Assembly (NCBI GenBank): GCA_964016885.1
Contig: OZ024757.1
Coordinates: forward strand, 744,001 to 808,000
Length of the DNA: 64,000 bases
From: Eledone cirrhosa
Lineage: Eukaryota
Direction of reading: 5' to 3'
Shown: in pieces, positions 20,062 to 64,000 of the stretch
Numbering within the stretch: position 1 is the first letter of the stretch
Layout: the number at the start of each line of letters is the position of its first letter
Made by a program: the position numbers and the translations under genes
The notes under the pieces: generated by a model
Told to the model about the DNA's origin: nothing
Seen by the model: the letters and a program-made list of their open reading frames with translations, nothing else
The model's database searches: none

Positions 20062-20101
<40 letters not shown>

Positions 20102-30184: not shown

Positions 30185-35320
<5,136 letters not shown>

Positions 35321-35561: not shown

Positions 35562-36713
35562 AATGGTAAATAACTGAAAAGAGAGACTACCTCCAACTAA
35601 CCCCAAAGAGGGACCAGCTTTTGAAATAGATAGTTATAGGGTCAAAGAAGCAATCAACGGGAATAAAAATGGTAAAGCTGCTGTTCCATTAGAAATAACT
35701 GAGATGTTGAAAGATTCTGGGGAAATAGATGTCAAACTAGTCACGTACATAGTCAATCAGATAATATAGGATGGGGCCATACCGAATTACTGACATCGTC
35801 GTATACTAATATAATGCTATAAAGGAAAAGGTGAGGTACTAGAAAGGAGCAACTACTCAGGCATGAAACTAATGGAACAAGTAATAGAAATGTGAGAAAG
35901 AGTTTTAATACAACTACTTAGAGAAATAATCAAATTAGATGAGATGTTAGATTTTATGCCAGGGAGAAGTACTACAGATATACTCTTTTCTTAATGACAA
36001 AACTACAAGAGAAGTTACTAGCTAAGAATAAGCCTCTGTATCTAAATATTGTTCATGTGGAGAAGTCCTTTGACAGAGTATCTATCTGTCATCTGGTGGT
36101 CCTTAAGGAAACTAGGTGTAGGAGAATGCCTTGTAAGAGAAGTGCAAGCTATGTACAGAGAAACTGTTAGTAAAGTGTGTTTGGTTCTGAGTTTAGTGTG
36201 GAAATGTACAGGTAGGAGTCCAGAGTTCAGTCCTCAGCCCAATCCTGTTTATCATTATCCTTCAGGCCATCATAAAACAGTTTAACATTGGCAATCCCTG
36301 GGACGTCCTATGTGCTGATGATGTAGTACTCATAGCTGAATCTGTAGGAAAGTTAGGACGAAATTTCAAGCATGCAAGAAAAACCAAGAGGTGAAAGGAC
36401 TAAAAGTAAACTAAGCAAGCATATGATGTATGTAATGTTAGTGTGCATGAGTGAAATAGCATGAGAGGAATTGGATAGAGTGTGCAAGAGAGAAGACTGT
36501 GTTGGTATGGCAAATAGAAGGTGGATAAAGAAATACAGAGAAACCCCAGTAGCTAGGACCCTTGGAAGAGGTAGACCCAGGAAGACATGGTATGAGGCTG
36601 TGAAGACTGACCTTATAAAACTAAAGCTCACAACAGAAATGATAAAAGCCCATAGCTGCTGGTACTATGTTGTGCAAATGAAGACCTCATTAACAACATT
36701 GAATGTGGCCTAA
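35562..36713 (+). mobile_element. Old RTE fragment, paralog of 10141-11295
   Basis: Shares the same lesions and internal deletion. Confidence 0.85.
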
Positions 36714-36956
36714 CTTCTCATGTCCCCTTCACATCTTCCACTAACACGCCCTAACATCTATCTTCATCATCATTACACACCTAGAATCCTCAGCTGCTGC
36801 CCCCTTAAAAGCTCTGAGATACCCCCATTATCATGCCCTGGTTGTTACTCTCTTCCCTTTATACCCTTCACACTGGCTGCTGCACTCTCTACACCCCCCA
36901 TGGCTCCATATGTATTCATTTCCTTTCTACTGACACCCCGTCCTTAGATCCCCTCT

Positions 36957-39900
36957 CTATCTTACCCTAGTAGCTACAGTCTTCACTCCAATGTCACTAT
37001 CTCACCCTAGTAGCTACTGTCTTCACCCCAATGTCACTCTCACCCTAGTAGCTACTGTCTCCATCCTAATGTCACTATCTCACACTAGTAGCTATTATCT
37101 CCACCCCAATGTCACTATCTCACCCTAGTAACTACTGTCTCCACCCCAATGTCACTATCTCAACCTTGTATCTACTGACGTCACCCCAATGTCACTATCT
37201 CACCCTAGTAGCCTCTGTCTTCACCCCAATGTCACTATCTCACCCTAGTAGCTCTGTCTTCACCCCAATGTCACTATCTCACCCTAATAGCTACTGTCTC
37301 CACCCCAATGTCATTATCTCACCCTAGTAGCTGTTGTCTTCACCCCAATGTCACTATCTCACCCTAGTAGCTACTGTCTTCACACCAATGTCACTATCTC
37401 ACCCTAGTAGCTATTGTCTTCACCCCAATGTCACTATCTCACCCTAGTAGCTACTGTCTTCACCCTAATGTCACTATCTCACCCTGCAAGCTACTGTCTT
37501 TACCCCAATATCAGTATCTCACTCTAGTAGCTACTGTCTTCACCCCAATGTCACTATCTCACCGTAGTAGCTACTGTCTTCACCCTAATGTCACTATCTC
37601 ACCCTAGTAGCTACTGTCTTCACCCCAATGTCACTATCTCACCCTAGTAGCTACTGTCTTTACCCCAATGTCACTATCTCACCATAGTAGCTACTGTCTT
37701 CACCCTAATGTCACTATCTCAACCTAGTAGCTACTGTCTTCACCCCAACGTCACTGTCTCACCCTAGTAGCTACTGTCTCCACTCCAATGTCACTATCTC
37801 ACCCTAATAGCTATTGTCTCCACCCAAATGTCACTATCTCACCCTAGTAGCTACTCTCTTCACCCCAATGTCACTATCTCACCCTGCCAGCTACTCTCTT
37901 TACCCCAATATCAGTATCTCACTCTAGTAGCTTCTGTCTTCACCCCAATGTCACTATCTCACCCTAGTAGCTACTGTCTCCACCCTAATGTCACTATCTC
38001 ACACTAGTAGCTATTGACTCCACCCCAATGTCACTATCACCCTAGTAACTACTGTCTCCACCCCAATGTCACTATCTCAACCTTGTATCTACTGACGTCA
38101 CCCCAATGTCACTATCTCACCCAGTAGCCTCTGTCTTCACCCCAATGTCACTATCTCACCCAGTAGCCTCTGTCTTCACCCCAATGTCACTATCTCACCC
38201 TACTAGTTACTGTCTTCACCCTAATGTCCATCTCACACTTGTATCTACTGTCTTCACCCCAATGTCACTATCTCACTCTAGTAGACTCAGTCTTCACCCC
38301 AATGTCACTATCTCACCCTACTAGCTACTGTCTTCACCCTAATAGCTACTGTCTCCACCCCAATGTCATTATCTCCACCTCAATGTCACTATCTCACCCT
38401 AGTAGCTACTGTCTTCACCCCAATGTCACTATCTCACCCTACTGGTTACTGTCTTCACCCTAATGTCCATCTCACACTTGTATCTACTGTCTTCACCCCA
38501 GTGTCACTATCTCACTCTAGTAGCCTCAGTCTTCACCCCAATGTCACTATCTCACCCTAGTAGCTACTGTATTCACCTTAATGTCAGTATCTCACCGTAG
38601 TATCTACTCTCTTCACCCCAATGTCACTATCTCACCCTAGTAGCTACTGTCGTCACCCCAATGTCACTATCTCACCCTAGTAGCTACTGTCTTTACCCCA
38701 ATGTCACTATCTCACCATAGTAGCTACTGTTCTCACCCTAATGTCACTATCTCACCCTAGTAGCTACTGTCTCCACTCCAATGTCACTATCTGACCCTAG
38801 TAGCTACTGTCTCCACCCTAATGTCACTATCTCACCCTAGTAGCCACTGTCTTCACCCTAATGTCACTATCTCACCCTAGTATCTACTGTCTTCACCCCA
38901 ATGTCACTATCTCACCCTAGTAGCTACTGTCTCCACTCCAATGTCCCTAGCTGACCCTAGTAGCTACTGTCTTTACCCCAATGTCACTATCTCACCATAC
39001 TAGCTACTGTCTTCACCCTAATGTCACTATCTCACCCTAGTAGCTACTGTCTTCACCCCAATGTCACTATCTCACCCTAGTAGCTACTGTCTCCACTCCA
39101 ATGTCACTAGCTGACCCTAGTAGCTACTGTCTCCACTCCAATGTCACTATCTGACACTAGTAGCTACTGTCTTTACCCCAATGTCACTATCTCACCATAG
39201 TAGCTACTGTCTTCACCCTAATGTCACTATCTCAACCTAGTAGCTACTGTCTTCACCCCAATGTCACTGTCTCACCCTAGTAGCTACTGTCTCCACTCCA
39301 ATGTCACTATCTCACCCCAATAGCTATTTTCTCCACCCAAACGTCACTATCTCACCCTGCCAGCTACTGTCTTTACCCCAATATCAGTATCTCACTCTAG
39401 TAGCTACTGTCTTCACCCCAATGTCACTATCTCACCCTAGTAGCTACTGTCTTCACCCTAATGTCACTATCTCACCCTGCCAGCTACTGTCTTTACCCCA
39501 ATGTCACTATCTCACTATAGTAGCTACTGTCTTCACCCCAATGTTACTATCTCACCCTAGTAGCTACTGTCTCCACCCTAATGTCACTATCTCACACTAG
39601 TAGCTATTGTCTCCACCCCAATGTCACTATCTCACCCTACTAGTTACTGTCTTCACCCTAATGTCCATCTCACACTTGTATCTACTGTCTTCACCCCAAT
39701 GTCAATATCTCACTCTAGTAGCCTCAGTCTTCACCCCAATGTCACTATCTCACCCTACTAGCTACTGTCTTCACCCTAATAGCTACTGTCTCTACCCCAA
39801 TGTCATTATCTCACCCTAGTAGCTATTGTCTCCACCTCAATGTCACTATCTCACCCTAGTAGCTACTGTTTCCACCCTAATGTCACTATCTCACCCGAGT

Positions 39901-42900
39901 AGCTACTGTTTCCACCCTAACGTCACTATCACACCCCAGTAGCTATTGTCTCCACCCCAATGTCACTATCTCACCCTAGTAGCTACTGTATTCACCTTAA
40001 TGTCAGTATCTCACCGTAGTATCTACACTCTTCACCCCAATGTCACTATCTCACCCTAGTAGCTCTGTCTTCAACGCAATGTCACTATCTCACCCTAGTA
40101 GCTACTGACTTCACCCTAATTTCGCTATCTCACCCTAGTATCTACTGTCTTCACCCTAGTATCTACTGTCTTTACCCCAATGTCACTATCTCACCCTAGT
40201 AGCTACTGTCTTCACCCCAATATCACTATCTCACCCTAGTAGCTACTGTCGTCACCCCAATGTCACTATCTCACCCTAGTAGTTACTGTCTCCACTCCAA
40301 TGTCACTATCTCACCCTAGTAGCTACTGTCTTTACCCCAATGTTACTATCTCACCATAGTAGCTACTGTTCTCACCCTAATGTCACTATCTCACCCTAGT
40401 AGCTACTGTCTCCACTCCAATGTCACTATCTGACCCTAGTAGCTACTGTCTCCACCCCAATGTCACTATCTCACCCTAGTAGCTACTGTCTTCACCCTAA
40501 TGTCACTATCTCACCCTAGTAGCTACTGTCTTCACCCCAATGTCACTATCTCACCCTAGTAGCTACTGTCTCCACTCCAATGTCCCTAGCTGACCCTAGT
40601 AGCTACTGTCTCCACTCCAATGTCACTATCTCACCCTTGTAGCTACTGTCTTTACCCCAATGTCACTATCTCACCATACTAGATACTGTCTTCACCCTAA
40701 TGTCACTATCTCACCCTAGTAGCTACTGTCTTCACCCCAATGTCACTATCTCACCCTAGTAGCTACTGTCTCCGCTCCAATGTCACTAGCTGACCCTAGT
40801 AGCTACTGTCTCCACTCCAATGTCACTATCTGACCCTAGTAGCTACTGTCTTTACCCCAATGTCACTATCTCACCATAGTAGCTACTGTCTTCACCCTAA
40901 TGTCACTATCTCAACCTAGTAGCTACTGTCTTCACCCCAATGTCACTGTCTCACCCTAGTAGCTACTGTCTCCACTCCAATGTCACTATCTCACCCTAAT
41001 AGCTATTGTCTCCACCCAAATGTCACTATCTCACCCTAGTAGCTACTGTCTTCACCCCAATGTCACTATCTCACCCTGCCAGCTACTGTCTTTACCCCAA
41101 TATCAGTATCTCACTCTAGTAGCTACTGTCTTCACCCCAATGCCACTATCTCACCCTAGTAGCTACTGTCTCCACCCTAATGTCACTATCTCACCCTAGT
41201 AACTACTGTCTCCACCCCAATGTCACTATCTCAACCTTGTATCTACTGACATCACCCCAATGTCACTATCTCACCCAGTAGCCCCTGTCTTCACCCCAAT
41301 GTCACTATCTCACCCTACTAGTTACTGTCTTCACCCTAATGTCCATCTCACACTTGTATCTACTGTCTTCACCCCAATGTCACTATCTCACTCTAGTAGC
41401 CTCAGTCTTCACCCTAATGTCACTATCTCACCCTACTAGCTACTGTCTCCACCCCAATGTCATTATCTCACCCTAGTAGCTATTGTCTCCACCTCAATGT
41501 CACTATCTCACCCTAGTAGCTACTGTTTCCACCCTAATGTCACTATCACACCCCAGTAGCTATTGTCTCCACCCCAATGTCACTATCTCACCCTAGTAGC
41601 TACTGTATTCACCTTAATGTCAGTATCTCACCGTAGTATCTACACTCTTCCCCCCAATGTCACTATCTCACCCTAGTAGCTACTGTCTCCACCCTAATGT
41701 TACTATCTCACCCTAGTAGATACAGTCTTCACCCCAATGTCACTATCTCACCCTAGTATCTACTCTCTTCACCCCAATGTCACTATCTCAACCTACTAGC
41801 TACTGTCTTCACTCTAATAGCTACTGTCTCCACCCCAATGTCATTATCTCACCCTAGTAGCTATTGTCTCCACCTCAATGTCAATATCTCACCCTAGTAG
41901 CTACTGTCTTCACCCCAATGTCACTATCTCGCCCTAGTAGCTCTGTCTTCACTGCAATGTCACTATCTCACCCTAGTAGCTACTGACTTTACCCCAATGT
42001 CACTATCTCATCCTAGTAGCTACTGTCTTCACCCTAATGTCACTATCTCACCCTAGTAGCTACTGTCTCCACCCTAATGTTACTATCTCACCCTAGTAGC
42101 TACTATCTTTACCCCAATGTCACTATCTCACCCTGCCAGCTAGTGTCTTTACCCCAATGTCAGTATCTCACTCTAGTAGCTACTGTCTTCACCCTAGTAG
42201 CTATTGTCTCCACCCCAATGTCACTATCTCACCCTAGTAGCTAGTGTCTTCATCCTAATGTCACTATCTCACCCTAGTAGCCACTGTCTTCACCCTAATG
42301 TCACTATCTCACTCTAGTATCTACTGTCTTCACCCCAATGTCACTATCTCACCCTAATATCTATTGTCTCCACCCAAATGTCACTATCTCACCCTAGTAG
42401 CTACTGTCTTCACCCCAATGTCACTATCTCACCCTAGTAGCTACTGTCTCCACTCCAATGTCACTAGCTGACCCTAGTAGCTACTGTCTCCACTCCAATG
42501 TCACTATCTGACCCTAGTAGCTACTGTCTTTACCCCAATGTCACTATCTCACCATAGTAGCTACTGTCTTCACCCTAATGTCACTATCTCAACCTAGTAG
42601 CTACTGTCTTCACCCCAATGTCACTATCTCACCCTAGTACCTACTGTCTCCACCCTAATGTCACTATCTCACACTAGTAGCTATTGTCTCCACCCCAATG
42701 TCACTATCTCACCCTAGTAACTACTGTCTCCACCCCAATGTCACTATCTCAACCTTGTATCTACTGACGACACCCCAATGTCACTATCTCGCCCAGTAGC
42801 CTCTGTCTTCACCCCAATGTCACTATCACACCCCAGTAGCTATTGTCTTCACCCCAATGTCACTATCTCACCCTAGTAGCTACTGACTTCACCCTAATTT

Positions 42901-45900
42901 CACTAACTCACCCTAGTATCTACTCTCTTCACCCTAGTATCTACTGTCTTTACCCCAATGTCACTATCTCACCCTAGTAGCTACTGTCTTCACCCTAATG
43001 TCACTATCTCACCCTAGTAGCTACTGTTTCCACCCTAATGTCACTATCACACCCCAGTAGCTATTGTCTCCACACTAATGTCACTATCTCACCCTAGTAG
43101 CTACTGTATTGAACCTAATGTCAGTATCTCACCGTAGTATCTACTCTCTTCAACCCAATGTCACTATCTAACCCTAGTAGCTACTGTCTCAACCCTAATG
43201 TTACTATCTCACCCTAGTAGATACAGTCTTCACTCCAATGTCACTATCTCACCCTAGTAGCTACTGTATTGAACCTAATGTCAGTATCTCACCGTAGTAT
43301 CTACTCTCTTCAACCCAATGTCACTATCTCTCCCTAGTAGCTACTGTTTCCACCCTAATGTCACTATCACACCCCAGTAGCTATTGTCTCCACACTAATG
43401 TCAATATCTCACCCTAGTAGCTACTGTCTTCACCCCAATGTCACTATCTCAGCCTAGTAGCTCTGTCTTCAACGCAATGTCACTATCTCACCCTAGTAGC
43501 TACTGACTTCACCCTAATTTCGCTATCTCACCCTAGTATCTACTGTCTTCACCCTAGTATCTACTGTCTTTACCCCAATGTCACTATCTCACCCTAGTAG
43601 CTACTGTCTTCACCATAATGTCACTATCTCACCCTAGTAGCTACTGTCGTCACCCCAATGTCACTATCTCACCCTAGTAGCTACTGTCTTTACCCCAATG
43701 TCACTATCTAACCCTAGTAGCTACTGTCTTCACCCTAATGTCACTATCTCACCCTAGTAGCTACTGTCGTCACCCCAATGTCACTATCTCACCCTACTAG
43801 TTACTGTCTTCACCCTAATGTCCATCTCACACTTGTATCTACTGTCTTCACCCCAATGTCACTATCTCACTCTAGTAGCCTCAGTCTTCACCCCAACGTC
43901 ACTATCTCACCCTACTAGCTACTGTCTTCACCCTAATAGCTACTGTCTCCACCCCAATGTCATTATCTCACCCTAGTAGCTATTGTCTCCACCTCAATGT
44001 CACTATCTCACCCTAGTAGCTACTGTTTCCACCCTAATGTCACTATCACACCCCAGTAGCTATTGTCTCCACCCCAATGTCACTATCTGACCCTAGTAGC
44101 TACTGTATTCACCTTAATGTCCGTATCTCACCGTAGTATCTACACTCTTCACCCCAATGTCACTATCTCACCCTAGTAGCTACTGTCTCGACCCTAATGT
44201 TACTATCTCACCCTAGTAGCTACTGTCTTCACCCTAATGTCACTATCTCACCCTATTAGCTACTGTCTTCACCCAATGTAACTATCTCACCCTAGTAGCT
44301 ACTGTCTTCACCCCAATGTCTCTATCTTACCCTAGTAGCTACTGTCTTTACCCCAATGTCAATATCTCACCCTGCCAGCAACTGTCTTTACCTCAATATC
44401 AGTATCTCACTCTAGTAGCTACTGTCTTCACCCCAAGTCACTATCTCACCCTAGTAGCTACTGTCTTCACCCTAATGTCACCATCTCACCCTAGTAGCTA
44501 CTGTCTTCACCCCAATGTCACTATCTCACCCTAGTAGCTACTGTCTCCACTCCAACGTCACTAGCTGACCCTAGTAGCTACTGTCTCCACTCCAATGTCA
44601 CTATCTGACCCTAGTAGCTACTGTCTCCACCCTAATGTCACTATCTCACCCTAGTAGCCACTGTCTTCACCCTAATGTCACTATCTCAGCCTATAATCTA
44701 CTGTCTTCACCCCAATGTCACTATCTCACCCTAATAGCTATTGTCTCCACCCAAATGTCACTATCTCACCCTAGTAGCTACTGTCTTCACCCCAATGTCA
44801 CTATCTCACCCTGCCAGCTACTGTCTTTACCCCAATATCAGTATCTCACTCTAGTACCTACTGTCTTCACCCCAATGTCACTATCTCACCCTAGTAGCTA
44901 CTGTCTCCACTACAATGTCACTAGCTGACACTAGTAGCTACTGTCTCCACTCCAATGTCACTATCTCACCCTAGTAGCTACTGTCTTTACCCCAATGTCA
45001 CTATCTCACCCTAGTAGCTACTGTCTTCACCCTAATGTCACTATCTCACCCTAGTAGCTACTGTTTCCACCCTAATGTCACTATCACACCCCAGTAGCTA
45101 TTGTCTCCACACTAATGTCACTATCTCACCCTAGTAGCTACTGTATTGAACCTAATGTCAGTATCTCACCGTAGTATCTACTCTCTTCAACCCAATGTCA
45201 CTATCTCACCCTAGTAGCTACTGTCTCAACCCTAATGTTACTATCTCACCCTAGTAGATACAGTCTTCACTCCAATGTCACTATCTCACCCTAGTAGCTA
45301 CTGTATTGAACCTAATGTCAGTATCTCACCGTAGTATCTACTCTCTTCAACCCAATGTCACTATCTCTCCCTAGTAGCTACTGTTTCCACCCTAATGTCA
45401 CTATCACACCCCAGTAGCTATTGTCTCCACACTAATGTCAATATCTCACCCTAGTAGCTACTGTCTTCACCCCAATGTCACTATCTCAGCCTAGTAGCTC
45501 TGTCTTCAACGCAATGTCACTATCTCACCCTAGTAGCTACTGACTTCACCCTAATTTCGCTATCTCACCCTAGTATCTACTGTCTTCACCCTAGTATCTA
45601 CTGTCTTTACCCCAATGTCACTATCTCACCCTAGTAGCTACTGTCTTCACCATAATGTCACTATCTCACCCTAGTAGCTACTGTCGTCACCCCAATGTCA
45701 CTATCTCACCCTAGTAGCTACTGTCTTTACCCCAATGTCACTATCTAACCCTAGTAGCTACTGTCTTCACCCTAATGTCACTATCTCACCCTAGTAGCTA
45801 CTGTCGTCACCCCAATGTCACTATCTCACCCTACTAGTTACTGTCTTCACCCTAATGTCCATCTCACACTTGTATCTACTGTCTTCACCCCAATGTCACT

Positions 45901-48900: not shown

Positions 48901-51900
48901 TGTCTTTACCCCAATGTCAGTATCTCACTCTAGTAGCTACTGTCTTCACCCTAGTAGCTATTGTTTCCACCCCAATGTCACTATCTCACCCTAGTAGCTA
49001 CTGTCTTCACCCTAATGTCACTATCTCACCCTATTAGCTACTGTCTTCACCCCAATGTAACTATCTCACCCTAGTAGCTACTGTCTTTACCCTAATGTCA
49101 CTATCTTACCCTAGTAGCTACTGTCTTTACCCCAATGTCAGTATCTCACCCTGCCAGCAACTGTCTTTACCTCAATATCAGTATCTCACTCTAGTAGCTA
49201 CTGTTTTCACCCCAACGTCACTATCTCACCCTAGTAGCTACTGTCTTCACCCTAATGTCACTATCTCACCCTAGTAGCTACTGTCCTCACCCCAATGTCA
49301 CTATCTCACCCTAGTAGCTATTGTTTGCACCTCAATGTCAATATCTCACCCTAGTAGCTACTGTCTTCACCCTAATGTCACTATCTCACCCTAGTAGCTC
49401 TGTCTTCAACGCAATGTCACTATCTCACCCTAGTAGCTACTGACTTCACCCTAATTTCGCTATCTCACCCTAGTATCTACTGTCTTCACCCTAGTATCTA
49501 CTGTCTTTACCCCAATGTCACTATCTCACCCTAGTAGCTACTGTCTTTACCCCAATGTCACTATCTCAACCTGCCAGCTACTGTCTTTACCCCAATGTCA
49601 GTATCTCACTCTAGTAGCTACTGTCTTCACCCTAGTAGCTATTGTTTCCACCCCAATGTCACTATCTCACCCTAGTAGCTACTGTCTTCACCCTAATGTC
49701 ACTATCTCACCCTATTAGCTACTATCTTCACCCCAATGTAACTATCTCACCCTAGTAGCTACTGTCTTCACCCTAATGTCACTATCTTACCCTAGTAGCT
49801 ACTGTCTTTACCCCAATGTCAATATCTCACCCTGCCAGCAACTGTCTTTACCTCAATATCAGTATCTCACCCTAGTAGCTACTGTCTCCACTCCAATGTC
49901 ACTAGCTGAACCTAGTAGCTACTGTCTCCACTCCAATGTCACTATCTCACCCTAGTAGCTACTGTCTTTAGCCCAATGTCACTATCTCACCCTAGTAGCT
50001 ACTGTCTTCACCCTAATGTCACTATCTCACCCTAGTAGCTACTGTCTTCACCCCAATGTCACTATCTCACCCTAGTAGTTACTGTCTCCACTCCAATGTC
50101 ACTATCTGACCCTAGTAGCTACTGTCTCCACCCTAATGTCCCTATCTCACCCTAGTAGCCACTGTCTTCACCCTAATGTCACTATCTCACCCTAGTATCT
50201 TCTGTCTTCACCACAATGTCACTATCTCACCCTAGTAGCTACTGTCTTCACCCTAATGTCACTATCTCACCCTAGTAGCTACTGTCTTCACCCCAATGTC
50301 ACTATCTCACCCTAGTAGCTACTGTCTCCACTCCAATGTCACTATCTGACCCTAGTAGCTACTGTCTCCACCCTAATGTCACTATCTCACCCTAGTAGCT
50401 ACTGTCTTCACCCTAATGTCACTATCTCACCCTAGTATCTACTGTCTTCACCCCAATGTCACTATCTCACCCTAATAGCTATTGTCTTCACCCCAATGTC
50501 ACTATCTCACCCTAGTAGCTACTGTCTTCACCCTAATTGCACTATCTCACCCTATTAGCTACTGTCTTCACCCAACGTAACTATCTCACCCTAGTAGCTA
50601 CTGTCTTCACCCTAATGTCACTATCTTACCCTAGTAGCTTCTGTCTTTACCCCAATGTCACTATCTCACCCTGCCAGCTACTGTCTTTACCCCAATATCA
50701 GTATATCACTCTAGTAGCTACTGTCTTCACCCCAATGTCACTATCTCACCCTAGTAGCTACTGTCTTCACCCTAACGTCACTATCTCACCCTAGTAGCTA
50801 CTGTCTTCACCCCAATGTCACTATCTCACCCTAGTAGCTATTGTTTGCACCTCAATGCCAATATCTCACCCTAGTAGCTACTGTCTTCATCCCAATGTCA
50901 CTATCTCACCCTAGTAGCTCTGTCTTCAACGCAACGTCACTATCTCACCCTAGTAGCTACTGACCTCACCCTAATTTCGCTATCTCACCCTAGTATCTAC
51001 TGTCTTTACCCCAATGTCACTATCTCACCCTAGTAGCTACTGTCTTTACCCCAATGTCACTATCTCACCCTGCCAGCTACTGTCTTTACCCCAATGTCAG
51101 TATCTCACTCTAGTAGCTACTGTCTTCACCCTAGTAGCTATTGTTTCCACCCCAATGTCACTATCTCACCCTAGTAGCTACTGTCTTCACCCTAATGTCA
51201 CTATCTCACCCTATTAGCTACTATCTTCACCCCAATGTAACTATCTCACCCTAGTAGCTACTGTCTTCACCCTAATGTCACTATCTTACCCTAGTAGCTA
51301 CTGTCTTTACCCCAATGTCAATATCTCACCCTGCCAGCAACTGTCTTTACCTCAATATCAGTATCTCACCCTAGTAGCTACTGTCTCCACTCCAATGTCA
51401 CTAGCTGAACCTAGTAGCTACTGTCTCCACTCCAATGTCACTATCTCACCCTAGTAGCTACTGTCTTTAGCCCAATGTCACTATCTCACCCTAGTAGCTA
51501 CTGTCTTCACCCTAATGTCACTATCTCACCCTAGTAGCTACTGTCTTCACCCCAATGTCACTATCTCACCCTAGTAGTTACTGTCTCCACTCCAATGTCA
51601 CTATCTGACCCTAGTAGCTACTGTCTCCACCCTAATGTCCCTATCTCACCCTAGTAGCCACTGTCTTCACCCTAATGTCACTATCTCACCCTAGTATCTT
51701 CTGTCTTCACCACAATGTCACTATCTCACCCTAGTAGCTACTGTCTTCACCCTAATGTCACTATCTCACCCTAGTAGCTACTGTCTTCACCCCAATGTCA
51801 CTATCTCACCCTAGTAGCTACTGTCTCCACTCCAATGTCACTATCTGACCCTAGTAGCTACTGTCTCCACCCTAATGTCACTATCTCACCCTAGTAGCTA

Positions 51901-54900
51901 CTGTCTTCACCCTAATGTCACTATCTCACCCTAGTATCTACTGTCTTCACCCCAATGTCACTATCTCACCCTAATAGCTATTGTCTTCACCCCAATGTCA
52001 CTATCTCACCCTAGTAGCTACTGTCTTCACCCTAATTGCACTATCTCACCCTATTAGCTACTGTCTTCACCCAACGTAACTATCTCACCCTAGTAGCTAC
52101 TGTCTTCACCCTAATGTCACTATCTTACCCTAGTAGCTTCTGTCTTTACCCCAATGTCACTATCTCACCCTGCCAGCTACTGTCTTTACCCCAATATCAG
52201 TATATCACTCTAGTAGCTACTGTCTTCACCCCAATGTCACTATCTCACCCTAGTAGCTACTGTCTTCACCCTAACGTCACTATCTCACCCTAGTAGCTAC
52301 TGTCTTCACCCCAATGTCACTATCTCACCCTAGTAGCTATTGTTTGCACCTCAATGCCAATATCTCACCCTAGTAGCTACTGTCTTCATCCCAATGTCAC
52401 TATCTCACCCTAGTAGCTCTGTCTTCAACGCAACGTCACTATCTCACCCTAGTAGCTACTGACCTCACCCTAATTTCGCTATCTCACCCTAGTATCTACT
52501 GTCTTTACCCCAATGTCACTATCTCACCCTAGTAGCTACTGTCTTTACCCCAATGTCACTATCTCACCCTGCCAGCTACTGTCTTTACCCCAATGTCAGT
52601 ATCTCACTCTAGTAGCTACTGTCTTCACCCTAGTAGCTATTGTTTCCACCCCAATGTCACTATCTCACCCTAGTAGCTACTGTCTTCACCCTAATGTCAC
52701 TATCTCACCCTATTAGCTACTGTCTTCACCCCAATGTAACTATCTCACCCTAGTAGCTACTGTCTTCACCCTAATGTCACTATCTTACCCTAGTAGCTAC
52801 TGTCTTTACCCCAATGTCAATATCTCACCCTGCCAGCAACTGTCTTTACCTCAATATCAGTATCTCACTCTAGTAGCTACTGTTTTCACCCCAATGTCAC
52901 TATCTCACCCTAGTAGCTACTGTCTTCACCCTAATGTCACTATCTCACCCTAGTAGCTACTGTCTTCACCCCAATGTCACTATCTCACCCTAGTAGTTAC
53001 TGTCTCCACTCCAATGTCACTATCTGACCCTAGTAGCTACTGTCTCCACCCTAAAGTCCCTATCTCACGCTAGTAGCCACTGTCTTCACCCTAATGTCAC
53101 TATCTCACCCTAGTATCTACTGTCTTCACCACAATGTCACTATCTCACCCTAATAGCTATTGTCTCCACCCAAATGTCACTAGCTGACCCTAGTAGCTAC
53201 TGTCTCCACTCCAATGTCACTATCTCACCCTAGTAGCTACTGTCTTTACCCCAATATCAGTATCTCACTCTAGTAACTACTGTCTTCACCCCAATGTCAC
53301 TATCTCACCCTAGTAGCTACTGTCTCCACTCCAATGTCACTAGCTGACCCTAGTAGCTACTGTCTCCACTCCAATGTCACTATCTCACCCTAGTAGCTAC
53401 TGTCTTCACCCTAATGTCATTATCTCACCCTAGTAGCTACTGTTTCCACCCTAATATCACTATCACACCCCAGTAGCTATTGTCTCCACCCCAATGTCAC
53501 TATCTCACCCTACTAGCTACTGTCTTCACCCTAACAGCTACTGTCTCCACCCCAATGTCACTATCTCACCCTAATAGCTATTGTCTCCACCCAAATGTCA
53601 CTATCTCACCCTAGTATCTACTGTCTTCACACCAATGTCACTATCTCACCCCAGTAGCTATTGTCTCCACCTCAATGTCACTATCTCACCCTACTAGCTA
53701 CTGTCTTCACCCTAACAGCTACTGTCTCCACCCCAATGTCATTATCTTACCTTAGTAGCTATTGTCTCCACCTCAATGTCAATATCTCACCCTAGTAGAT
53801 CTGTCTTCAACGCAACTTCACTATCTCACCCTAGTAGCTACTGACTTCACCCTAATTTCGCTATCTCAACCTAGTATCTACTGTCTTCACCCTAGTATCT
53901 ACTGTCTTTACCCCAATGTCACTATCTCACCCTAGTAGCTACTGTCTTTACCCCAATGTCACTATCTCATCCTGCCAGCTACTGTCTTTACCCCAATGTA
54001 ACTATCTCACCCTAGTAGCTACTGTCTTCACCCTAATGTCACTATCTGACCCTAGTAGCTACTGTCTTCACCCCAATGTCACTATCTCACCCTAGTAGCT
54101 ACTGTCTCCACTCCAATGTCACTATCTGACCCTAGTAGCTACTGTCTCCACCCTAATGTCACTATCTCACCCTAGTAGCTACTGTCTTCACCCTAATGTC
54201 ACTATCTCACCCTAGTATCTACTGTCTTCACCCCAATGTCACTATCTCACCCTAATAGCTATTGTCTCCACCCAAATGTCACTATCTCACCCTAGTAGCT
54301 ACTGTCTTCACCCCAATGTCACTATCTCACCCTAGTAGCTACTGTCTTCAACCTAATGTCACTATCTCACCCTATTAGCTACTGTCTTCACCCCAATGTC
54401 ACTATCTCACCCTAGTAGCTACTGTCTCCACTCCAATGTCACTATCTGACCCTAGTAGCTACTGTCTCCACCCTAATGTCACTATCTCACCCTAGTAGCT
54501 ACTGTCTTCACCCTAATGTCACTATCTCTCCCTAGTATCTACTGTCTTCACCCCAATGTCACTATCTCACCCTAATAGCTATTGTCTTCACCCCAATGTC
54601 ACTATCTCACCCTAGTAGCTACTGTCTTCACCCTAATTGCACTATCTCACCCTATTAGCTACTGTCTTCACCCAACGTAACTATCTCACCCTAGTAGCTA
54701 CTGTCTTCGCCCTAATGTCACTATCTTACCCTAGTAGCTTCTGTCTTTACCCCAATGTCACTATCTCACCCTGCCAGCTACTGTCTTTACCCCAATATCA
54801 GTATATCACTCTAGTAGCTACTGTCTTCACCCCAATGTCACTATCTCACCCTAGTAGCTACTGTCTTCACCCTAACGTCACTATCTCACCCTAGTAGCTA

Positions 54901-57900
54901 CTGTCTTCACCCCAATGTCACTATCTCACCCTAGTAGCTATTGTTTGCACCTCAATGCCAATATCTCACCCTAGTAGCTACTGTCTTCATCCCAATGTCA
55001 CTATCTCACCCTAGTAGCTCTGTCTTCAACGCAACGTCACTATCTCACCCTAGTAGCTACTGACCTCACCCTAATTTCGCTATCTCACCCTAGTATCTAC
55101 TGTCTTCACCCTAGTATCTACTGTCTTTACCCCAATGTCACTATCTCACCCTAGTAGCTACTGTCTTTACCCCAATGTCACTATCTCACCCTGCCAGCTA
55201 CTGTCTTTACCCCAATGTCAGTATCTCACTCTAGTAGCTACTGTCTTCACCCTAGTAGCTATTGTTTCCACCCCAATGTCACTATCTCACCCTAGTAGCT
55301 ACTGTCTTCACCCTAATGTCACTATCTTACCCTAGTAGCTACTGTCTTCACCCTAATGTCACTATCTCACCCTATTAGCTACTGTCTTCACCCCAATGTA
55401 ACTATCTCACCCTAGTAGCTACTGTCTTCACCCTAATGTCACTATCTTACCCTAGTAGCTACTGTCTTTACCCCAATGTCAATATCTCACCCTGCCAGCA
55501 ACTGTCTTTACCTCAATATCAGTATCTCACTCTAGTAGCTACTGTTTTCACCCCAATGTCACTATCTCACCCTAGTAGCTACTGTCTTCACCCTAATGTC
55601 ACTATCTCACCCTAGTAGCTACTGTCTTCACCCCAATGTCACTATCTCACCCTAGTAGTTACTGTCTCCACCCTAAAGTCCCTATCTCACGCTAGTAGCC
55701 ACTGTCTTCACCCTAATGTCACTATCTCACCCTAGTATCTACTGTCTTCACCACAATGTCACTATCTCACCCTAATAGCTATTGTCTCCACCCAAATGTC
55801 ACTAGCTGACCCTAGTAGCTACTGTCTCCACTCCAATGTCACTATCTCACCCTAGTAGCTACTGTCTTTACCCCAATATCAGTATCTCACTCTAGTAACT
55901 ACTGTCTTCACCCCAATGTCACTATCTCACCCTAGTAGCTACTGTCTCCACTCCAATGTCACTAGCTGACCCTAGTAGCTACTGTCTCCACTCCAATGTC
56001 ACTATCTCACCCTAGTAGCTACTGTCTTCACCCTAATGTCACTATCTCACCCTAGTAGCTACTGTTTCCACCCTAATATCACTATCACACCCCAGTAGCT
56101 ATTGTCTCCACCCCAATGTCACTATCTCACCCTACTAGCTACTGTCTTCACCCTAACAGCTACTGTCTCCACCCCAATGTCACTATCTCACCCTAATAGC
56201 TATTGTCTCCACCCAAATGTCACTATCTCACCCTAGTATCTACTGTCTTCACACCAATGTCACTATCTCACCCCAGTAGCTATTGTCTCCACCCCAATGT
56301 CACTATCTCACCCTACTAGCTACTGTCTTCACCCTAACAGCTACTGTCTCCACCCCAATGTCATTATCTTACCTTAGTAGCTATTGTCTCCACCTCAATG
56401 TCAATATCTCACCCTAGTAGATCTGTCTTCAACGCAACGTCACTATCTCACCCTAGTAGCTACTGACTTCACCCTAATTTCGCTATCTCAACCTAGTATC
56501 TACTGTCTTCACCCTAGTATCTACTGTCTTTACCCCAATGTCACTATCTCACCCTAGTAGCTACTGTCTTTACCCCAATGTCACTATCTCATCCTGCCAG
56601 CTACTGTCTTTACCCCAATGTAACTATCTCACCCTAGTAGCTACTGTCTTCACCCTAATGTCACTATCTGACCCTAGTAGCTACTGTCTTCACCCCAATG
56701 TCACTATCTCACCCTAGTAGCTACTGTCTCCACTCCAATGTCACTATCTGACCCTAGTAGCTACTGTCTCCACCCTAATGTCACTATCTCACCCTAGTAG
56801 CTACTGTCTTCACCCTAATGTCACTATCTCACCCTAGTATCTACTGTCTTCACCCCAATGTCACTATCTCACCCTAATAGCTATTGTCTCCACCCAAATG
56901 TCACTATCTCACCCTAGTAGCTACTGTCTTCACCCCAATGTCACTATCTCACCCTAGTAGCTACTGTCTTCAACCTAATGTCACTATCTCACCCTATTAG
57001 CTACTGTCTTCACCCAACGTAACCATCTCACCCTAGTAGCTACTGTCTTCACCCTAATGTCACTATCTTACCCTAGTAGCTTCTGTCTTTACCCCAATGT
57101 CACTATCTCACCCTGCCAGCTACTGTCTTTACCCCAATATCAGTATATCACTCTAGTAGCTACTGTCTTCACCCCAATGTCACTATCTCACCCTAGTAGC
57201 TACTGTCTTCACCCTAACGTCACTATCTCACCCTAGTAGCTACTGTCTTCACCCCAATGTCACTATCTCACCCTAGTAGCTATTATTTGCACCTCAATGT
57301 CAATATCTCACCCTAGTAGCTACTGTCTTCACCCCAATGTCACTATCTCACCCTAGTAGCTCTGTCTTCAACGCAATGTCACTATCTCACCCTAGTAGCT
57401 ACTGACTTCACCCTAATTTCGCTATCTCACCCTAGTATCTACTGTCTTCACCCTAGTATCTACTGTCTTTTACCCCAATGTCACTATCTCACCCTATTAG
57501 CTACTGTCTTTACCTCAATGTCACTATCACACCCTGCCAGCTACTGTCTTTACCCCAATGTCAGTATCTCACTCTAGTAGCTACTGTCTTCACCCTAGTA
57601 GCTATTGTTTCCACCCCAATGTCACTATCTCACCCTAGTAGCTACTGTCTTCACCCTAATGTCACTATCTCACCCTATTAGCTACTGTCTTCACCCCAAT
57701 GTAACTATCTCACCCTAGTAGCTACTGTCTTTACCCTAATGTCACTATCTTACCCTAGTAGCTACTGTCTTTACCCCAATGTCAGTATCTCACCCTGCCA
57801 GCAACTGTCTTTACCTCAATATCAGTATCTCACTCTAGTAGCTACTGTTTTCACCCCAACGTCACTATCTCACCCTAGTAGCTACTGTCTTCACCCTAAT

Positions 57901-60900
57901 GTCACTATCTCACCCTAGTAGCTACTGTCCTCACCCCAATGTCACTATCTCACCCTAGTAGCTATTGTTTGCACCTCAATGTTAATATCTCACCCTAGTA
58001 GCTCTGTCTTCAACGCAATGTCACTATCTCACCCTAGTAGCTACTGACTTCACCCTAATTTCGCTATCTCACCCTAGTATCTACTGTCTTCACCCTAGTA
58101 TCTACTGTCTTTACCCCAATGTCACTATCTCACCCTAGTAGCTACTGTCTTTACCCCAATGTCACTATCTCAACCTGCCAGCTACTGTCTTTACCCCAAT
58201 GTCAGTATCTCACTCTAGTAGCTACTGTCTTCACCCTAGTAGCTATTGTTTCCACCCCAATGTCACTATCTCACCCTAGTAGCTACTGTCTTCACCCTAA
58301 TGTCACTATCTCACCCTATTAGCTACTGTCTTCACCCCAATGTAACTATCTCACCCTAGTAGCTACTGTCTTCACCCTAATGTCACTATCTTACCCTAGT
58401 AGCTACTGTCTTTACCCCAATGTCAATATCTCACCCTGCCAGCAACTGTCTTTACCTCAATATCAGTATCTCACCCTAGTAGCTACTGTCTCCACTCCAA
58501 TGTCACTAGCTGAACCTAGTAGCTACTGTCTCCACTCCAATGTCACTATCTCACCCTAGTAGCTACTGTCTTTAGCCCAATGTCACTATCTCACCCTAGT
58601 AGCTACTGTCTTCACCCTAATGTCACTATCTCACCCTAGTAGCTACTGTCTTCACCCCAATGTCACTATCTCATCCTAGTAGTTACTGTCTCCACTCCAA
58701 TGTCACTATCTGACCCTAGTAGCTACTGTCTCCACCCTAATGTCCCTATCTCACCCTAGTAGCCACTGTCTTCACCCTAATGTCACTATCTCACCCTAGT
58801 ATCTTCTGTCTTCACCACAATGTCACTATGTCACCCTAGTAGCTACTGTCTTCACCCTAATGTCACTATCTCACCCTAGTAGCTACTGTCTTCACCCCAA
58901 TGTCACTATCTCACCCTAGTAGCTACTGTCTCCACTCCAATGTCACTATCTGACCCTAGTAGCTACTGTCTCCACCCTAATGTCACTATCTCACCCTAGT
59001 AGCTACTGTCTTCACCCTAATGTCACTATCTCACCCTAGTATCTACTGTCTTCACCCCAATGTCACTATCTCACCCTAATAGCTATTGTCTTCACCCAAA
59101 TGTCACTATCTCACCCTAGTAGCTACTGTCTTCACCCCAATGTCACTATCTCACCCTAGTAGCTACTGTCTTCACCCTAATTGCACTATCTCACCCTATT
59201 AGCTACTGTCTTCACCCAACGTAACTATCTCACCCTAGTAGCTACTGTCTTCACCCTAATGTCACTATCTTACCCTAGTAGCTTCTGTCTTTACCCCAAT
59301 GTCACTATCTCACCCTGCCAGCTACTGTCTTTACCCCAATATCAGTATATCACTCTAGTAGCTACTGTCTTCACCCCAATGTCACTATCTCACCCTAGTA
59401 GCTACTGTCTTCACCCTAACGTCACTATCTCACCCTAGTAGCTACTGTCTTCACCCCAATGTCACTATCTCACCCTAGTAGCTATTGTTTGCACCTCAAT
59501 GCCAATATCTCACCCTAGTAGCTACTGTCTTCATCCCAATGTCACTATCTCACCCTAGTAGCTCTGTCTTCAACGCAACGTCACTATCTCACCCTAGTAG
59601 CTACTGACCTCACCCTAATTTCGCTATCTCACCCTAGTATCTACTGTCTTCACCCTAGTATCTACTGTCTTTACCCCAATGTCACTATCTCACCCTAGTA
59701 GCTACTGTCTTTACCCCAATGTCACTATCTCACCCTGCCAGCTACTGTCTTTACCCCAATGTCAGTATCTCACTCTAGTAGCTACTGTCTTCACCCTAGT
59801 AGCTATTGTTTCCACCCCAATGTCACTATCTCACCCTAGTAGCTACTGTCTTCACCCTAATGTCACTATCTCACCCTATTAGCTACTGTCTTCAACCCAA
59901 TGTAACTATCTCACCCTAGTAGCTACTGTCTTCACCCTAATGTCACTATCTTACCCTAGTAGCTACTGTCTTTACCCCAATGTCAATATCTCACCCTGCC
60001 AGCAACTGTCTTTACCTCAATATCAGTATCTCACTCTAGTAGCTACTGTTTTCACCCCAATGTCACTATCTCACCCTAGTAGCTACTGTCTTCACCCTAA
60101 TGTCACTATCTCACCCTAGTAGCTACTGTCTTCACCCCAATGTCACTATCTCACCCTAGTAGTTACTGTCTCCACTCCAATGTCACTATCTGACCCTAGT
60201 AGCTACTGTCTCCACCCTAAAGTCCCTATCTCACGCTAGTAGCCACTGTCTTCACCCTAATGTCACTATCTCACCCTAGTATCTACTGTCTTCACCACAA
60301 TGTCACTATCTCACCCTAATAGCTATTGTCTCCACCCAAATGTCACTAGCTGACCCTAGTAGCTACTGTCTCCACTCCAATGTCACTATCTCACCCTAGT
60401 AGCTACTGTCTTTACCCCAATATCAGTATCTCACTCTAGTAACTACTGTCTTCACCCCAATGTCACTATCTCACCCTAGTAGCTACTGTCTCCACTCCAA
60501 TGTCACTAGCTGACCCTAGTAGCTACTGTCTCCACTCCAATGTCACTATCTCACCCTAGTAGCTACTGTCTTCACCCTAATGTCACTATCTCACCCTAGT
60601 AGCTACTGTTTCCACCCTAATATCACTATCACACCCCAGTAGCTATTGTCTCCACCCCAATGTCACTATCTCACCCTACTAGCTACTGTCTTCACCCTAA
60701 CAGCTACTGTCTCCACCCCAATGTCACTATCTCACCCTAATAGCTATTGTCTCCACCCAAATGTCACTATCTCACCCTAGTATCTACTGTCTTCACACCA
60801 ATGTCACTATCTCACCCCAGTAGCTATTGTCTCCACCCCAATGTCACTATCTCACCCTACTAGCTACTGTCTTCACCCTAACAGCTACTGTCTCCACCCC

Positions 60901-63900
60901 AATGTCATTATCTTACCTTAGTAGCTATTGTCTCCACCTCAATGTCAATATCTCACCCTAGTAGCTCTGTCTTCAACGCAACGTCACTATCTCACCCTAG
61001 TAGCTACTGACTTCACCCTAATTTCGCTATCTCAACCTAGTATCTACTGTCTTCACCCTAGTATCTACTGTCTTTACCCCAATGTCACTATCTCACCCTA
61101 GTAGCTACTGTCTTTACCCCAATGTCACTATCTCATCCTGCCAGCTACTGTCTTTACCCCAATGTAACTATCTCACCCTAGTAGCTACTGTCTTCACCCT
61201 AATGTCACTATCTCACCCTAGTAGCTACTGTCTTCACCCCAATGTCACTATCTCACGCTAGTAGCTACTGTCTCCACTCCAATGTCACTAGCTGACCCTA
61301 GTAGCTACTGTCTCCACTCCAATGTAACTATCTCACCCTAGTAGCTACTGTCTTCACCCCAATGTCACTATCTCACCCTAGTAGCTACTGTCTCCACTCC
61401 AATGTCACTAGCTGACCCTAGCAGCTACTGTCTCCACTCCAATGTCACTATCTCACCCTAGTAGCTACTGTCTTTACCCCAATGTCACTATCTCACCCTA
61501 GTGGCTACTGTCTTCACCCTAATGTCACTATCTCACCCTAGTAGCTACTGTCTTCACCCCAATGTCACTATCTCAGCCTAGTAGCTCTGTCTTCAACGCA
61601 ATGTCACTATCTCACCCTAGTATCTACTGTCTTCACCCTAGTATCTACTGTCTTTACCCCAATGTCACTATCTCACCCTAGTAGCTACTGTCTTCACCAT
61701 AATGTCACTATCTCACCCTAGTAGCTACTGTCGTCACCCCAATGTCACTATCTCACCCTAGTAGCTACTGTCTTTACCCCAATGTCACTATCTAACCCTA
61801 GTAGCTACTGTCTTCACCCTAATGTCACTATCTCACCCTAGTAGCTACTGTCGTCACCCCAATGTCACTATCTCACCCTACTAGTTACTGTCTTCACCCT
61901 AATGTCCATCTCACACTTGTATCTACTGTCTTCACCCCAATGTCACTATCTCACTCTAGTAGCCTCAGTCTTCACCCCAACGTCACTATCTCACCCTACT
62001 AGCTACTGTCTTCACCCTAATAGCTACTGTCTCCACCCCAATGTCATTATCTCACCCTAGTAGCTATTGTCTCCACCTCAATGTCACTATCTCACCCTAG
62101 TAGCTACTGTTTCCACCCTAATGTCACTATCACACCCCAGTAGCTATTGTCTCCACCCCAATGTCACTATCTGACCCTAGTAGCTACTGTATTCACCTTA
62201 ATGTCCGTATCTCACCGTAGTATCTACACTCTTCACCCCAATGTCACTATCTCACCCTAGTAGCTACTGTCTCCACCCTAATGTTACTATCTCACCCTAC
62301 TAGCTACTGTCTTCACCCTAATAGCTACTGTCTCCACCCTAATAGCTACTGTCTCCACCCCAATGTCATTATCTCACCCTAGTAGCTATTGTCTCCACCT
62401 CAATGTCACTATCTCACCCTAGTAGCTACTGTCTTCACCCCAATGTTACTATCTCACCCTAGTAGCTACTGTCTTCACACTAATGTCACTATCTCACCCT
62501 ATTAGCTACTGTCTTCACCCAATGTAACTATCTCACCCTAGTAGCTACTGTCTTCACCCCAATGTCTCTATCTTACCCTAATAGCTACTGTCTCCACCCC
62601 AATGTCATTATCTCACCCTAGTAGCTATTGTCTCCACCTCAATATCAGTATCTCACTCTAGTAGCTACTGTCTTCACCCCAAGTCACTATCTCACCCTAG
62701 TAGCTACTGTCTTCACCCTAATGTCACCATCTCACCCTAGTAGCTACTGTCTTCACCCCAATGTCACTATCTCACCCTAGTAGCTACTGTCTCCACTCCA
62801 ACGTCACTAGCTGACCCTAGTAGCTACTGTCTCCACTCCAATGTCACTATCTGACCCTAGTAGCTACTGTCTCCACCCTAATTTCACTATCTCACCCTAG
62901 TAGCCACTGTCTTCACCCTAATGTCACTATCTCAGCCTATAATCTACTGTCTTCACCCCAATGTCACTATCTCACCCTAATAGCTATTGTCTCCACCCAA
63001 ATGTCACTATCTCACCCTAGTAGCTACTGTCTTCACCCCAATGTCACTATCTCACCCTGCCAGCTACTGTCTTTACCCCAATATCAGTATCTCACTCTAG
63101 TACCTACTGTCTTCACCCCAATGTCACTATCTCACCCTAGTAGCTACTGTCTCCACTCCAATGTCACTAGCTGACACTAGTAGCTACTGTCTCCACTCCA
63201 ATGTCACTATCTCACCCTAGTAGCTACTGTCTTTACCCCAATGTCACTATCTCACCCTAGTAGCTACTGTCTTCACCCTAATGTCACTATCTCACCCTAG
63301 TAGCTACTGTCTTCACCCTAACGTCACTATCTCACCCTAGTAGTTACTCTTTCCACCCTAATGTCACTATCACACCCCAGTAGCTATTGACTCCACCCCA
63401 ATGTCACTATGTCACCCTACAAGCTACTGTCTTCACCCTAACAGCTACTGTCTCCACCCCAATGTCATTATCTTACCCTAGTAGCTATTGTCTCCACCTC
63501 AATGTCAATATCGCACCCTAGTAGCTCTGTCTTCAACGCAATGTCACTATCTCACCCTAGTAGCTCTGTCTTCAACGCAATGTCACTATCTCACCCTAGT
63601 AGCTACTGACTTCACCCTAATTTCGCTATCTCACCCTAGTATCTACTGTCTTCACCCTAGTATCTACTGTCTTTTACCCCAATGTCACTATCTCACCCTA
63701 GTAGCTACTGTCTTTACCTCAATGTCACTATCACACCCTGCCAGCTACTGTCTTTACCCCAATGTCAGTATCTCACTCTAGTAGCTACTGTCTTCACCCT
63801 AGTAGCTATTGTTTCCACCCCAATGTCACTATCTCACCCTAGTAGCTACTGTCTTCACCCTAATGTCACTATCTCACCCTATTAGCTACTGTCTTCACCC

Positions 63901-64000
63901 CAATGTAACTATCTCACCCTAGTAGCTACTGTCTTCACCCTAATGTCACTATCTTACCCTAGTAGCTACTGTCTTTACCCCAATGTCAATATCTCACCCT
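36957..64000. repeat. 40-bp satellite array, >27 kb (about 680 units), running off the right edge
   Basis: Continuous CTATCTCACCCTAGTAGCTACTGTCTTCACCCYAATGTCA variants; no interrupting elements seen. Confidence 0.98.

What the first reader, a model, noticed from the sequence alone, without database searches (positions are those of the whole stretch)
36957..64000. Satellite expansion at one paralog: ~10 units in copy 1 versus about 680 or more in copy 2
Seen: both arrays start after the same flank (ccccgtccttagatcccctct). Their first ~7 units carry the same variants in the same order: gctacagtc, the 2-bp deletion tcactctcac, ccatcctaat, cacactag, gtaactac, caaccttgtatctactgacgtca, gcctctg. Copy 1 stops after 400 bp and copy 2 runs >27 kb. 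Inference: a roughly 65-fold or greater length change since a recent duplication. Expansion is suggested by the young higher-order repeats, but collapse in copy 1 is not excluded. The large array lies beside the stop-riddled ZNF copy and could silence it.
Basis: partly seen in the sequence, partly recalled or inferred. Interest (0 to 1): 0.75.

Follow-up and report, generated by a model that had tools for sequence, protein, structure and literature searches.

The report
Retrotransposon-born satellite exploding beside zinc-finger genes
A 40-letter repeat that closely resembles a single motif in the tail of a dead retrotransposon sits behind each of 13 near-identical zinc-finger gene copies at lengths from 10 to about 3,600 units, and the six long arrays share no internal order, so each likely grew on its own after the genes were duplicated; this is a clear example of a known route to satellite DNA, with no sign in the gene sequences that long arrays harm their neighbours.

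Summary
Copy 1 has 10 units (402 bp). Copy 2 runs 94.2 kb (about 2,355 units, 234-fold), with no gap, beyond the window. The two are not a lone pair or sisters. They are 2 of 13 zinc-finger/LINE-remnant/satellite cassettes in the first Mb of contig C18, with arrays of 10 to 3,593 units. All 11,222 genome-wide probe matches lie there. The unit matches a motif found 1-3 times in dispersed LINE tails, so the net direction is growth. The six arrays of 22 kb or more share no ordered content beyond a few edge units, while each is built of near-identical 1.5-15 kb internal duplications: each likely amplified independently. Whether copy 1 was also trimmed is unresolved; five separate deletions cut other arrays. 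Silencing is unsupported: array length does not track ORF length (rho 0.02, n=13), and copy 2's stops are two codon types multiplied by finger-block duplication. Expression is untested. This is a new member of a known kind (TE-derived satellite; satellite-spaced ZNF cluster as at human 19p12). The scan had already noted this satellite on neighbouring DNA and similar cases on other contigs.

The parts
6262..8883 (+). C2H2 zinc-finger ORF of copy 1 (cassette K): 873 aa, 30 fingers
   Evidence: Pfam zf-C2H2 families
10157..11543 (+). Decayed LINE 3' part (reverse transcriptase, C-terminal region, C-rich tail) before array 1; the tail holds one diverged copy of the unit motif
   Evidence: tblastn 55% over 202 aa to a window ORF that hits Pfam RVT_1
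11544..11945 (+). Short array, 10 units of 40 bp, with the LINE-side left junction and the right junction shared by 8 of 13 cassettes
11946..27700 (+). Spacer of the duplicated cassette (transposon remains and small repeats), homologous in pieces to the spacers of the other cassettes
30086..35338 (+). Zinc-finger region of copy 2 (cassette L): first stop after 242 aa (6 fingers); 10 in-frame stops within the finger run are two codon types (2 TGA, 8 TAG) repeated by internal duplications such as a 1,596-bp block
35578..36956 (+). Decayed LINE 3' part before array 2, 97.6% identical to that of copy 1
36957..64000 (+). First 27 kb of the 94,218-bp array (G000:C18:780,957-875,174), which ends against a GIY-YIG-coding repeat fragment
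49570..52721 (+). Longest exact internal repeat of the array: 1,653 bp at an offset of 1,499 bp

Best explanation
The array is a 40-bp satellite confined to one cluster of 13 duplicated zinc-finger cassettes; it likely began as a single motif in the tail of a LINE lying behind the ancestral gene, was likely copied as a passenger with the cassette, and then likely grew separately at six copies, this one included, by repeated tandem duplication of 1.5-15 kb blocks. Shown: position at the homologous place in the LINE tail, confinement to the cluster, lengths of 10 to 3,593 units, private order in each long array, near-identical internal blocks, conserved edge units, five different left-edge deletions and chimeric arrays. 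Inferred: the step from motif to first tandem array, the order of duplications, and the molecular route (out-of-register homologous repair: unequal sister exchange or break-induced replication). Copy 1 likely sits near the small end of the ancestral range and may have been trimmed from some tens of units (about even odds); collapse from an array as long as copy 2 is unlikely (about 0.15).
For: All 2,278 + 8,944 genome-wide matches of a 30-base probe at up to 3 mismatches lie in C18:1-1,058,000. Thirty dispersed loci carry the motif 1 (21 loci), 2 (7) or 3 (2) times with no tandem array over it; 19 of 30 have LINE homology just upstream; their majority letters match the unit at 30 of 40 positions and one locus at 35 of 40 (the first 25 columns were fixed by the search pattern). 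The same upstream context precedes the array start. Median best match of 320-bp windows within an array is 0.3% (E, F, H), 1.2% (L), 3.4-4.1% (A, M); between long arrays it is 6.6-11.9%, equal to shuffled-unit controls of 6.9-10.6% for the six pairs tested. Flanks differ by only 1.4-3.9% among 11 cassettes, 4-7% for the A/B pair over about 490 bp. Ordered similarity between arrays is limited to 6-34 edge or near-edge units except for the identical-flank pair A/B, 172 units. Best self-match offsets in copy 2 are 37-384 units. Copy 1's units 4, 6 and 7 recur 38, 24 and 57 times in copy 2.
Against: Complete turnover of an inherited long array would also erase shared order. About 36% of copy 2 has no earlier exact 100-mer copy and its last two tenths match themselves at only 4.1-6.2%, more than the 2.4-2.8% flank distance to copy 1, so part of it could predate the split. 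L, M and D share units after unit 7 that copy 1 lacks. Flank trees are mostly unresolved and disagree between segments, so no ancestral length could be mapped. Eleven of 30 dispersed motif loci showed no LINE hit in the tested interval. One haplotype only.
Confidence: 0.8

Rival explanations
1. The ancestral cassette already carried a long array; copy 1 and the other short copies collapsed by deletion between distant units, and the long arrays lost their shared order by fast concerted turnover.
For: 9 of 13 arrays are 3 kb or longer. Five different deletions run from the LINE into the array, and two short arrays (10 and 28 units) sit behind such deletions and hold units unlike copy 1's. The last 34 units of the 83-unit array are collinear with the end of the 2,957-unit array. 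Older, poorly self-matching parts exist in L, M and A.
Against: F and H differ by 0.6% upstream and 1.4% in the left flank yet share under 0.5% of 120-mers and no window within 2%; turnover that complete is itself re-expansion from small seeds. The ultimate ancestor had one motif. Copy 1 keeps both original junctions.
Confidence: 0.15
2. The long array spreads heterochromatin over the neighbouring zinc-finger gene and has silenced it, allowing it to decay.
For: The cassette with the shortest open frame (242 aa) lies beside a 94-kb array. Satellite-zinc-finger regulation has been proposed for a human cluster (PMC3018141, passage).
Against: Open frames of 627, 739 and 901 aa lie beside arrays of 144, 73 and 48 kb, and frames of 319 and 366 aa beside arrays of 0.4 and 1.1 kb; Spearman rho 0.02, p 0.95, n = 13, not phylogenetically independent. 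The stops are one nonsense codon copied once plus the TAG that also ends the frame in 8 other cassettes, copied inward.
Confidence: 0.12
3. The 0.52 Mb of satellite is a young chromosome-specific centromere or pericentromere of C18, and centromeric chromatin drives the growth.
For: Satellite fills 58% of 892 kb near one end of a 43.9-Mb contig, with layered block duplications like centromeric arrays (PMC8997354 passages). CR1-derived chromosome-specific centromeric satellites of chicken are listed in PMC6947457 (table passage); retrotransposon-derived arrays expand mostly in primary constrictions in Lathyrus (PMC7004042).
Against: The arrays are broken every 0.4-144 kb by genes with open frames. 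The unit is on no other contig. Unchecked scan notes report locus-private satellites across this genome and another candidate array 12 Mb further along this contig.
Confidence: 0.08
4. The length contrast is an assembly artefact (copy 1 collapsed or copy 2 inflated).
For: No read set bridged either array; one sister array ends in a 200-N gap.
Against: No N in copy 2; its longest exact internal repeat is 1,653 bp (3,436 bp in any array), shorter than ordinary long reads (recalled). Copy 1 has a separately diverged 11-unit twin with the same two junctions. The satellite is present at very high summed depth in public runs (not a copy number).
Confidence: 0.06

Closest known systems
Satellites grown from short tandem arrays in the 3' UTR of Ogre LTR retrotransposons, Lathyrus sativus (PMC7004042; abstract and Discussion read)
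   Same: Monomer comes from the 3' non-coding part of a retrotransposon; short and expanded states coexist in one genome.
   Different: Here the donor is a non-LTR element whose dispersed copies hold 1-3 motifs and no array; the arrays spread by segmental duplication of a gene cassette, not by transposition, and stay in one Mb.
Beta-satellite blocks between KRAB zinc-finger genes at human 19p12 (Eichler et al. 1998, PMID 9724325; paper not seen, cited through a passage of PMC3018141)
   Same: Tandemly duplicated C2H2 genes interspersed with blocks of satellite.
   Different: Different monomer and lineage; here the satellite is private to the cluster, traceable to a LINE motif, and spans 10 to 3,593 units among copies a few percent apart.
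LINE-derived satellites (CR1-derived HinfI and Cen satellites of chicken, LINE-1-derived PROsat), as listed in the table of PMC6947457 (passages seen)
   Same: Satellite monomer derived from a non-LTR retrotransposon; chromosome-specific.
   Different: No centromere evidence here; short monomer; donor context and intermediate lengths survive side by side.
Avian 'sequence stuttering' (PMC12954441; abstract seen)
   Same: Massive, recent, locus-private expansion of short local sequences next to or within genes.
   Different: Described for introns on dot chromosomes with variation among individuals; here 3' of the coding exon, and variation among individuals is untested.
Coleoid C2H2 zinc-finger expansions (PMC9068888, passages seen)
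   Same: Clustered, greatly expanded multi-finger C2H2 genes.
   Different: That paper has no occurrence of 'satellite' or 'tandem repeat' in its main text. A 70-90 bp tandem repeat near octopus C2H2 genes in Albertin et al. 2015 is recalled only; the paper is not held.

Membership tests
Satellite DNA with higher-order structure | Head-to-tail monomers in arrays of tens of kb or more | tested here: met
   40-bp period; six arrays of 22-144 kb
Satellite DNA with higher-order structure | Multi-unit blocks more alike than neighbouring monomers | tested here: met
   monomers differ 10-16% within arrays; 8-unit windows match at 0.3-4%. Offsets vary, so there is no single fixed higher-order period
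Transposon-derived satellite | Monomer homologous to part of a dispersed element | tested here: met
Transposon-derived satellite | Array begins at the homologous place inside a copy of the element | tested here: met
   5 of 13 cassettes keep the LINE-tail junction; the other 8 have deletions from the LINE into the array
Ogre 3' UTR-type satellites | Dispersed element copies already carry short tandem arrays of the monomer | tested here: not met
   0 of 30 dispersed loci have a tandem array over the motif; one of 25 other LINE loci has a 6-copy array of a neighbouring 65-bp tail motif
RTE-clade LINE (label recalled) | Placement of the reverse transcriptase in the RTE clade | not tested
   only homology to a Pfam RVT_1 ORF was shown
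19p12-type satellite-spaced ZNF cluster | Tandem C2H2 genes interspersed with satellite blocks | tested here: met
   13 cassettes
19p12-type satellite-spaced ZNF cluster | KRAB domain and beta-satellite sequence | tested here: inconclusive
   no KRAB among the 25 of 35 Pfam families shown for the copy 1 exon; upstream exons not sought; monomer not compared with beta-satellite
Centromeric satellite | CENP-A occupancy or primary constriction | not testable with these tools
   no chromatin or cytogenetic data
Centromeric satellite | Shared by several chromosomes (usual, not universal) | tested here: not met
   11,222 of 11,222 matches in one Mb of C18
Avian sequence stuttering | Length variation among individuals, intronic position | not testable with these tools
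   no long reads of other individuals and no transcript model

The most novel reading that the evidence does not exclude
The cluster is a six-fold replicated, still-running birth of a satellite in which growth is biased upward once an array passes a threshold of tens of units, and the resulting 0.5 Mb has become a new chromatin domain (a nascent chromosome-specific centromere or heterochromatin block) built from a LINE tail in the middle of intact zinc-finger genes.
Probability: 0.1. Interest if true: 0.8.

Novelty: new member of a known kind. Interest (0 to 1): 0.4.

Why it matters
The routes (transposon piece to satellite; satellite between zinc-finger genes) are known. What is useful here is that the stages survive together: a single motif in dispersed LINE tails, then arrays of 10, 10, 11, 28, 83, 148, 190, 561+, 1,201, 1,824, 2,355, 2,957 and 3,593 units, behind flanks a few percent apart that serve as a clock. 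That makes it a natural replicated test of how fast and how often minisatellites become satellites, and of whether 100-kb arrays affect the expression of an adjacent gene, since near-identical genes sit beside short and long arrays.

Tried and rejected
A first right-flank tree grouped the long arrays E, F, H apart from the short ones at 100/100; after removing a variable 200-bp repeat the distances fell to 1-6% and the grouping vanished, so it is treated as misalignment. Apparent mid-array matches between A, L and M were phase artefacts of recurrent 17-bp deletions and were dropped. Rooting the cassettes to map ancestral array length failed: trees from four segments are mostly open and conflict. 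Public runs: no RNA holder listed. Contigs of 2 runs and RAD reads of 2 runs on copy 1, and contigs of 3 runs on the right end of copy 2, gave only short pieces; no listed record bridged either array or the right junction, so they neither confirm nor refute the lengths. No telomere repeat tract was seen at the contig start, which is (AT)n, so 'subtelomeric' is not claimed. Albertin et al. 2015 and Eichler et al. 1998 were not read. Seven literature searches listed no paper on this repeat or on octopus centromeric satellites, judged from titles and abstract starts; subscription papers are mostly not held. Scan look-ups near the finding and by sequence returned nothing.
Full report
Observation. 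Both arrays start after the same flank and have a 40-bp period. Copy 1 is 11544-11945 (10 units). Copy 2 starts at 36957 and fills the rest of the window. Their first seven units differ at 4 of 280 columns; among 13,049 seven-unit windows of the other arrays only the start of copy 2 and the start of one other paralog come within 5 differences. The 1.7-kb left flanks are 97.6% identical (1,694 of 1,736).

Context. The window is G000:C18:744,001-808,000 of a 3.0-Gb animal assembly; 'octopus-like' rests on recalled finger-linker style and unchecked scan notes, not on a homolog search. I fetched C18:1-1,058,000. It holds 13 cassettes of zinc-finger exon, LINE remnant, satellite array and spacer: nine on the minus strand and four on the plus strand. 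Array lengths in 40-bp units: A 1,201; B 190; C 148 (plus a 58-bp piece); D 83; E 2,957; F 3,593; G 28; H 1,824; I 10; J 11; K (copy 1) 10; L (copy 2) 2,355; M at least 561, ending at a 200-N gap. Copy 2 is 94,218 bp, 234 times copy 1. Satellite totals 518,924 bp, 58% of the 892-kb span. An exact 28-base probe has 583 + 1,487 matches in the genome and a 30-base probe at up to 3 mismatches has 2,278 + 8,944; both counts are reproduced exactly within the fetched Mb. The satellite is private to this cluster.

Origin. The left flank is the decayed 3' part of a LINE: 53-55% identity over 202 aa to a window ORF that hits Pfam RVT_1. Of 25 dispersed LINE relatives, several carry a motif aligning with the unit just past the coding region, the best with a score twice the shuffle maximum, and in the same upstream context as the array start. 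A search with that LINE motif gave 531 matches, of which an unknown share at 3 mismatches may be satellite units; the 100 listed places are all outside the cluster. In the 30 loci fetched the motif occurs once (21), twice (7) or three times (2), never as a tandem array; 19 of 30 show LINE homology just upstream; majority letters match the unit at 30 of 40 positions and the best locus at 35 of 40, with the first 25 columns fixed by the pattern. The net direction over the lineage is therefore from one motif to thousands. I reached this before reading scan note e1-9903451, which says the same for neighbouring DNA.

Growth. Monomers within any array, copy 1 included, differ by 10-16%, more than the flanks do, so monomer diversity is older than the duplications or accrues faster. 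Eight-unit windows find near-identical partners in their own array (median 0.3% in E, F, H; 1.2% in L; 3.4% in A; 4.1% in M) but only 6.6-11.9% in other long arrays, the level of shuffled-unit controls. Shared 120-mers between long arrays are at most 1%, against 34-75% repeated within. F and H are the sharpest case: 0.6% apart upstream and 1.4% in the left flank, with no ordered content in common beyond about 4 units. Ordered similarity survives only near edges (7 units K-L, 8 C-E, 18 B-C, about 34 D-E) and in the identical-flank pair A/B (172 units). In copy 2, best self-match offsets are 37-384 units, and 64% of bases are covered by exact 100-mers that occur earlier in the array, against 0.3% by those of array F. 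This pattern fits serial tandem duplication of kilobase blocks by out-of-register homologous repair. Unequal exchange and break-induced replication are the standard models (PMC8997354, passages), and whole-unit kilobase indels with elevated point mutation have been measured in Arabidopsis centromeres (10.1101/2025.06.02.657473, abstract). Which route acts here is inferred, not shown.

Direction for copy 1. For a near-ancestral short state: K and J keep the LINE-side junction (5 of 13 cassettes) and the commonest right junction (8 of 13), and K's units 4, 6 and 7 recur 38, 24 and 57 times in L and 7, 11 and 20 times in M. For trimming: five distinct deletions join the LINE to the array interior; I and G are short yet hold units unlike K's; L, M and D share units after unit 7 that K lacks; 36% of L has no earlier exact 100-mer and its last two tenths self-match at 4.1-6.2%. 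K and L are not sisters: K-J differ at 2 of 784 bases and L-D at 4 of 797, against 22 of 795 for K-L (13 informative sites unite L and D), and D is a mosaic whose array end is collinear with E. Trees are unresolved. I conclude that most of copy 2 postdates its split from copy 1, and that modest trimming of copy 1 is about even odds.

Silencing. Open-frame length from the shared start: A 901 aa, B 929, C 537, D 711, E 393, F 627, G 366, H 739, I 319, J 509, K 873, L 242, M 704. Spearman rho with array length is 0.02 (p 0.95, n = 13). The 10 stops inside L's finger run are one TGA copied once and eight copies of the TAG that also ends the frame in eight other cassettes, spread by internal duplications such as a 1,596-bp block. 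Coding stops would not show epigenetic silencing in any case, and expression was not tested.

Assembly. Copy 2 has no gap; its longest exact internal repeat is 1,653 bp and the longest in any array 3,436 bp. It ends against a high-copy fragment coding a GIY-YIG domain (Penelope-like is a recalled label). Available runs did not bridge the arrays, so exact lengths rest on the assembly.

Comparison and verdict. It works like the retrotransposon-derived satellites of Lathyrus (PMC7004042, abstract and Discussion) and LINE-derived satellites listed in PMC6947457 (passages), and is arranged like the beta-satellite blocks of the human 19p12 zinc-finger cluster (known here only through a passage of PMC3018141). 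It is not an Ogre-type case, since dispersed donors carry no arrays. A centromere role is not excluded but has little support. Unchecked scan notes describe this same satellite in windows 0.56-0.64 Mb away and analogous transposon-born satellites beside zinc-finger genes on other contigs, so the pattern is recurrent in this genome. No supplementary files were read. New member of a known kind; interest 0.4 for the unusually complete, replicated length series.

Noticed in passing
G000:C18:39,000-644,000 versus 684,000-931,000: The cluster is two opposed arms: nine cassettes on the minus strand and four on the plus strand, with an inverted repeat of about 4 kb near C18:650,000-662,700 between them.
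   Followed up: no
array units, positions 6-11 and 28-33: The unit has an internal direct repeat (TCACCC); recurrent 17-bp deletions between the two copies make 23-bp short units in several arrays.
   Followed up: partly
L026:1908-2298 (C27): Another LINE copy has its own 6-copy array of a 65-bp motif from the same C-rich tail, suggesting that this tail seeds tandem repeats more than once.
   Followed up: no
G000:C18:87,500-118,500: Cassettes A and B have identical flanks and share the first 172 array units, yet arrays of 48 kb and 7.6 kb; B's end matches C's.
   Followed up: partly
G000:C18:931,800-943,663 and 877,752-879,686: Other local satellites beside the cluster: a 35-bp unit of about 338 copies right after the gap, and 28- and 31-bp arrays after copy 2.
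   Followed up: no
window 6262-8883 and 30086-35338; all 13 cassettes: Finger number in the open frame varies from 6 to 31 among genes with near-identical N-termini, by internal block duplication.
   Followed up: partly
window 28252-29577, 491-1250, 5389-5752: A 53-61 bp TA-rich minisatellite upstream of the zinc-finger exon also differs in length between copies: about 6 units before copy 1, about 21-23 before copy 2, about 34 before cassette M.
   Followed up: no
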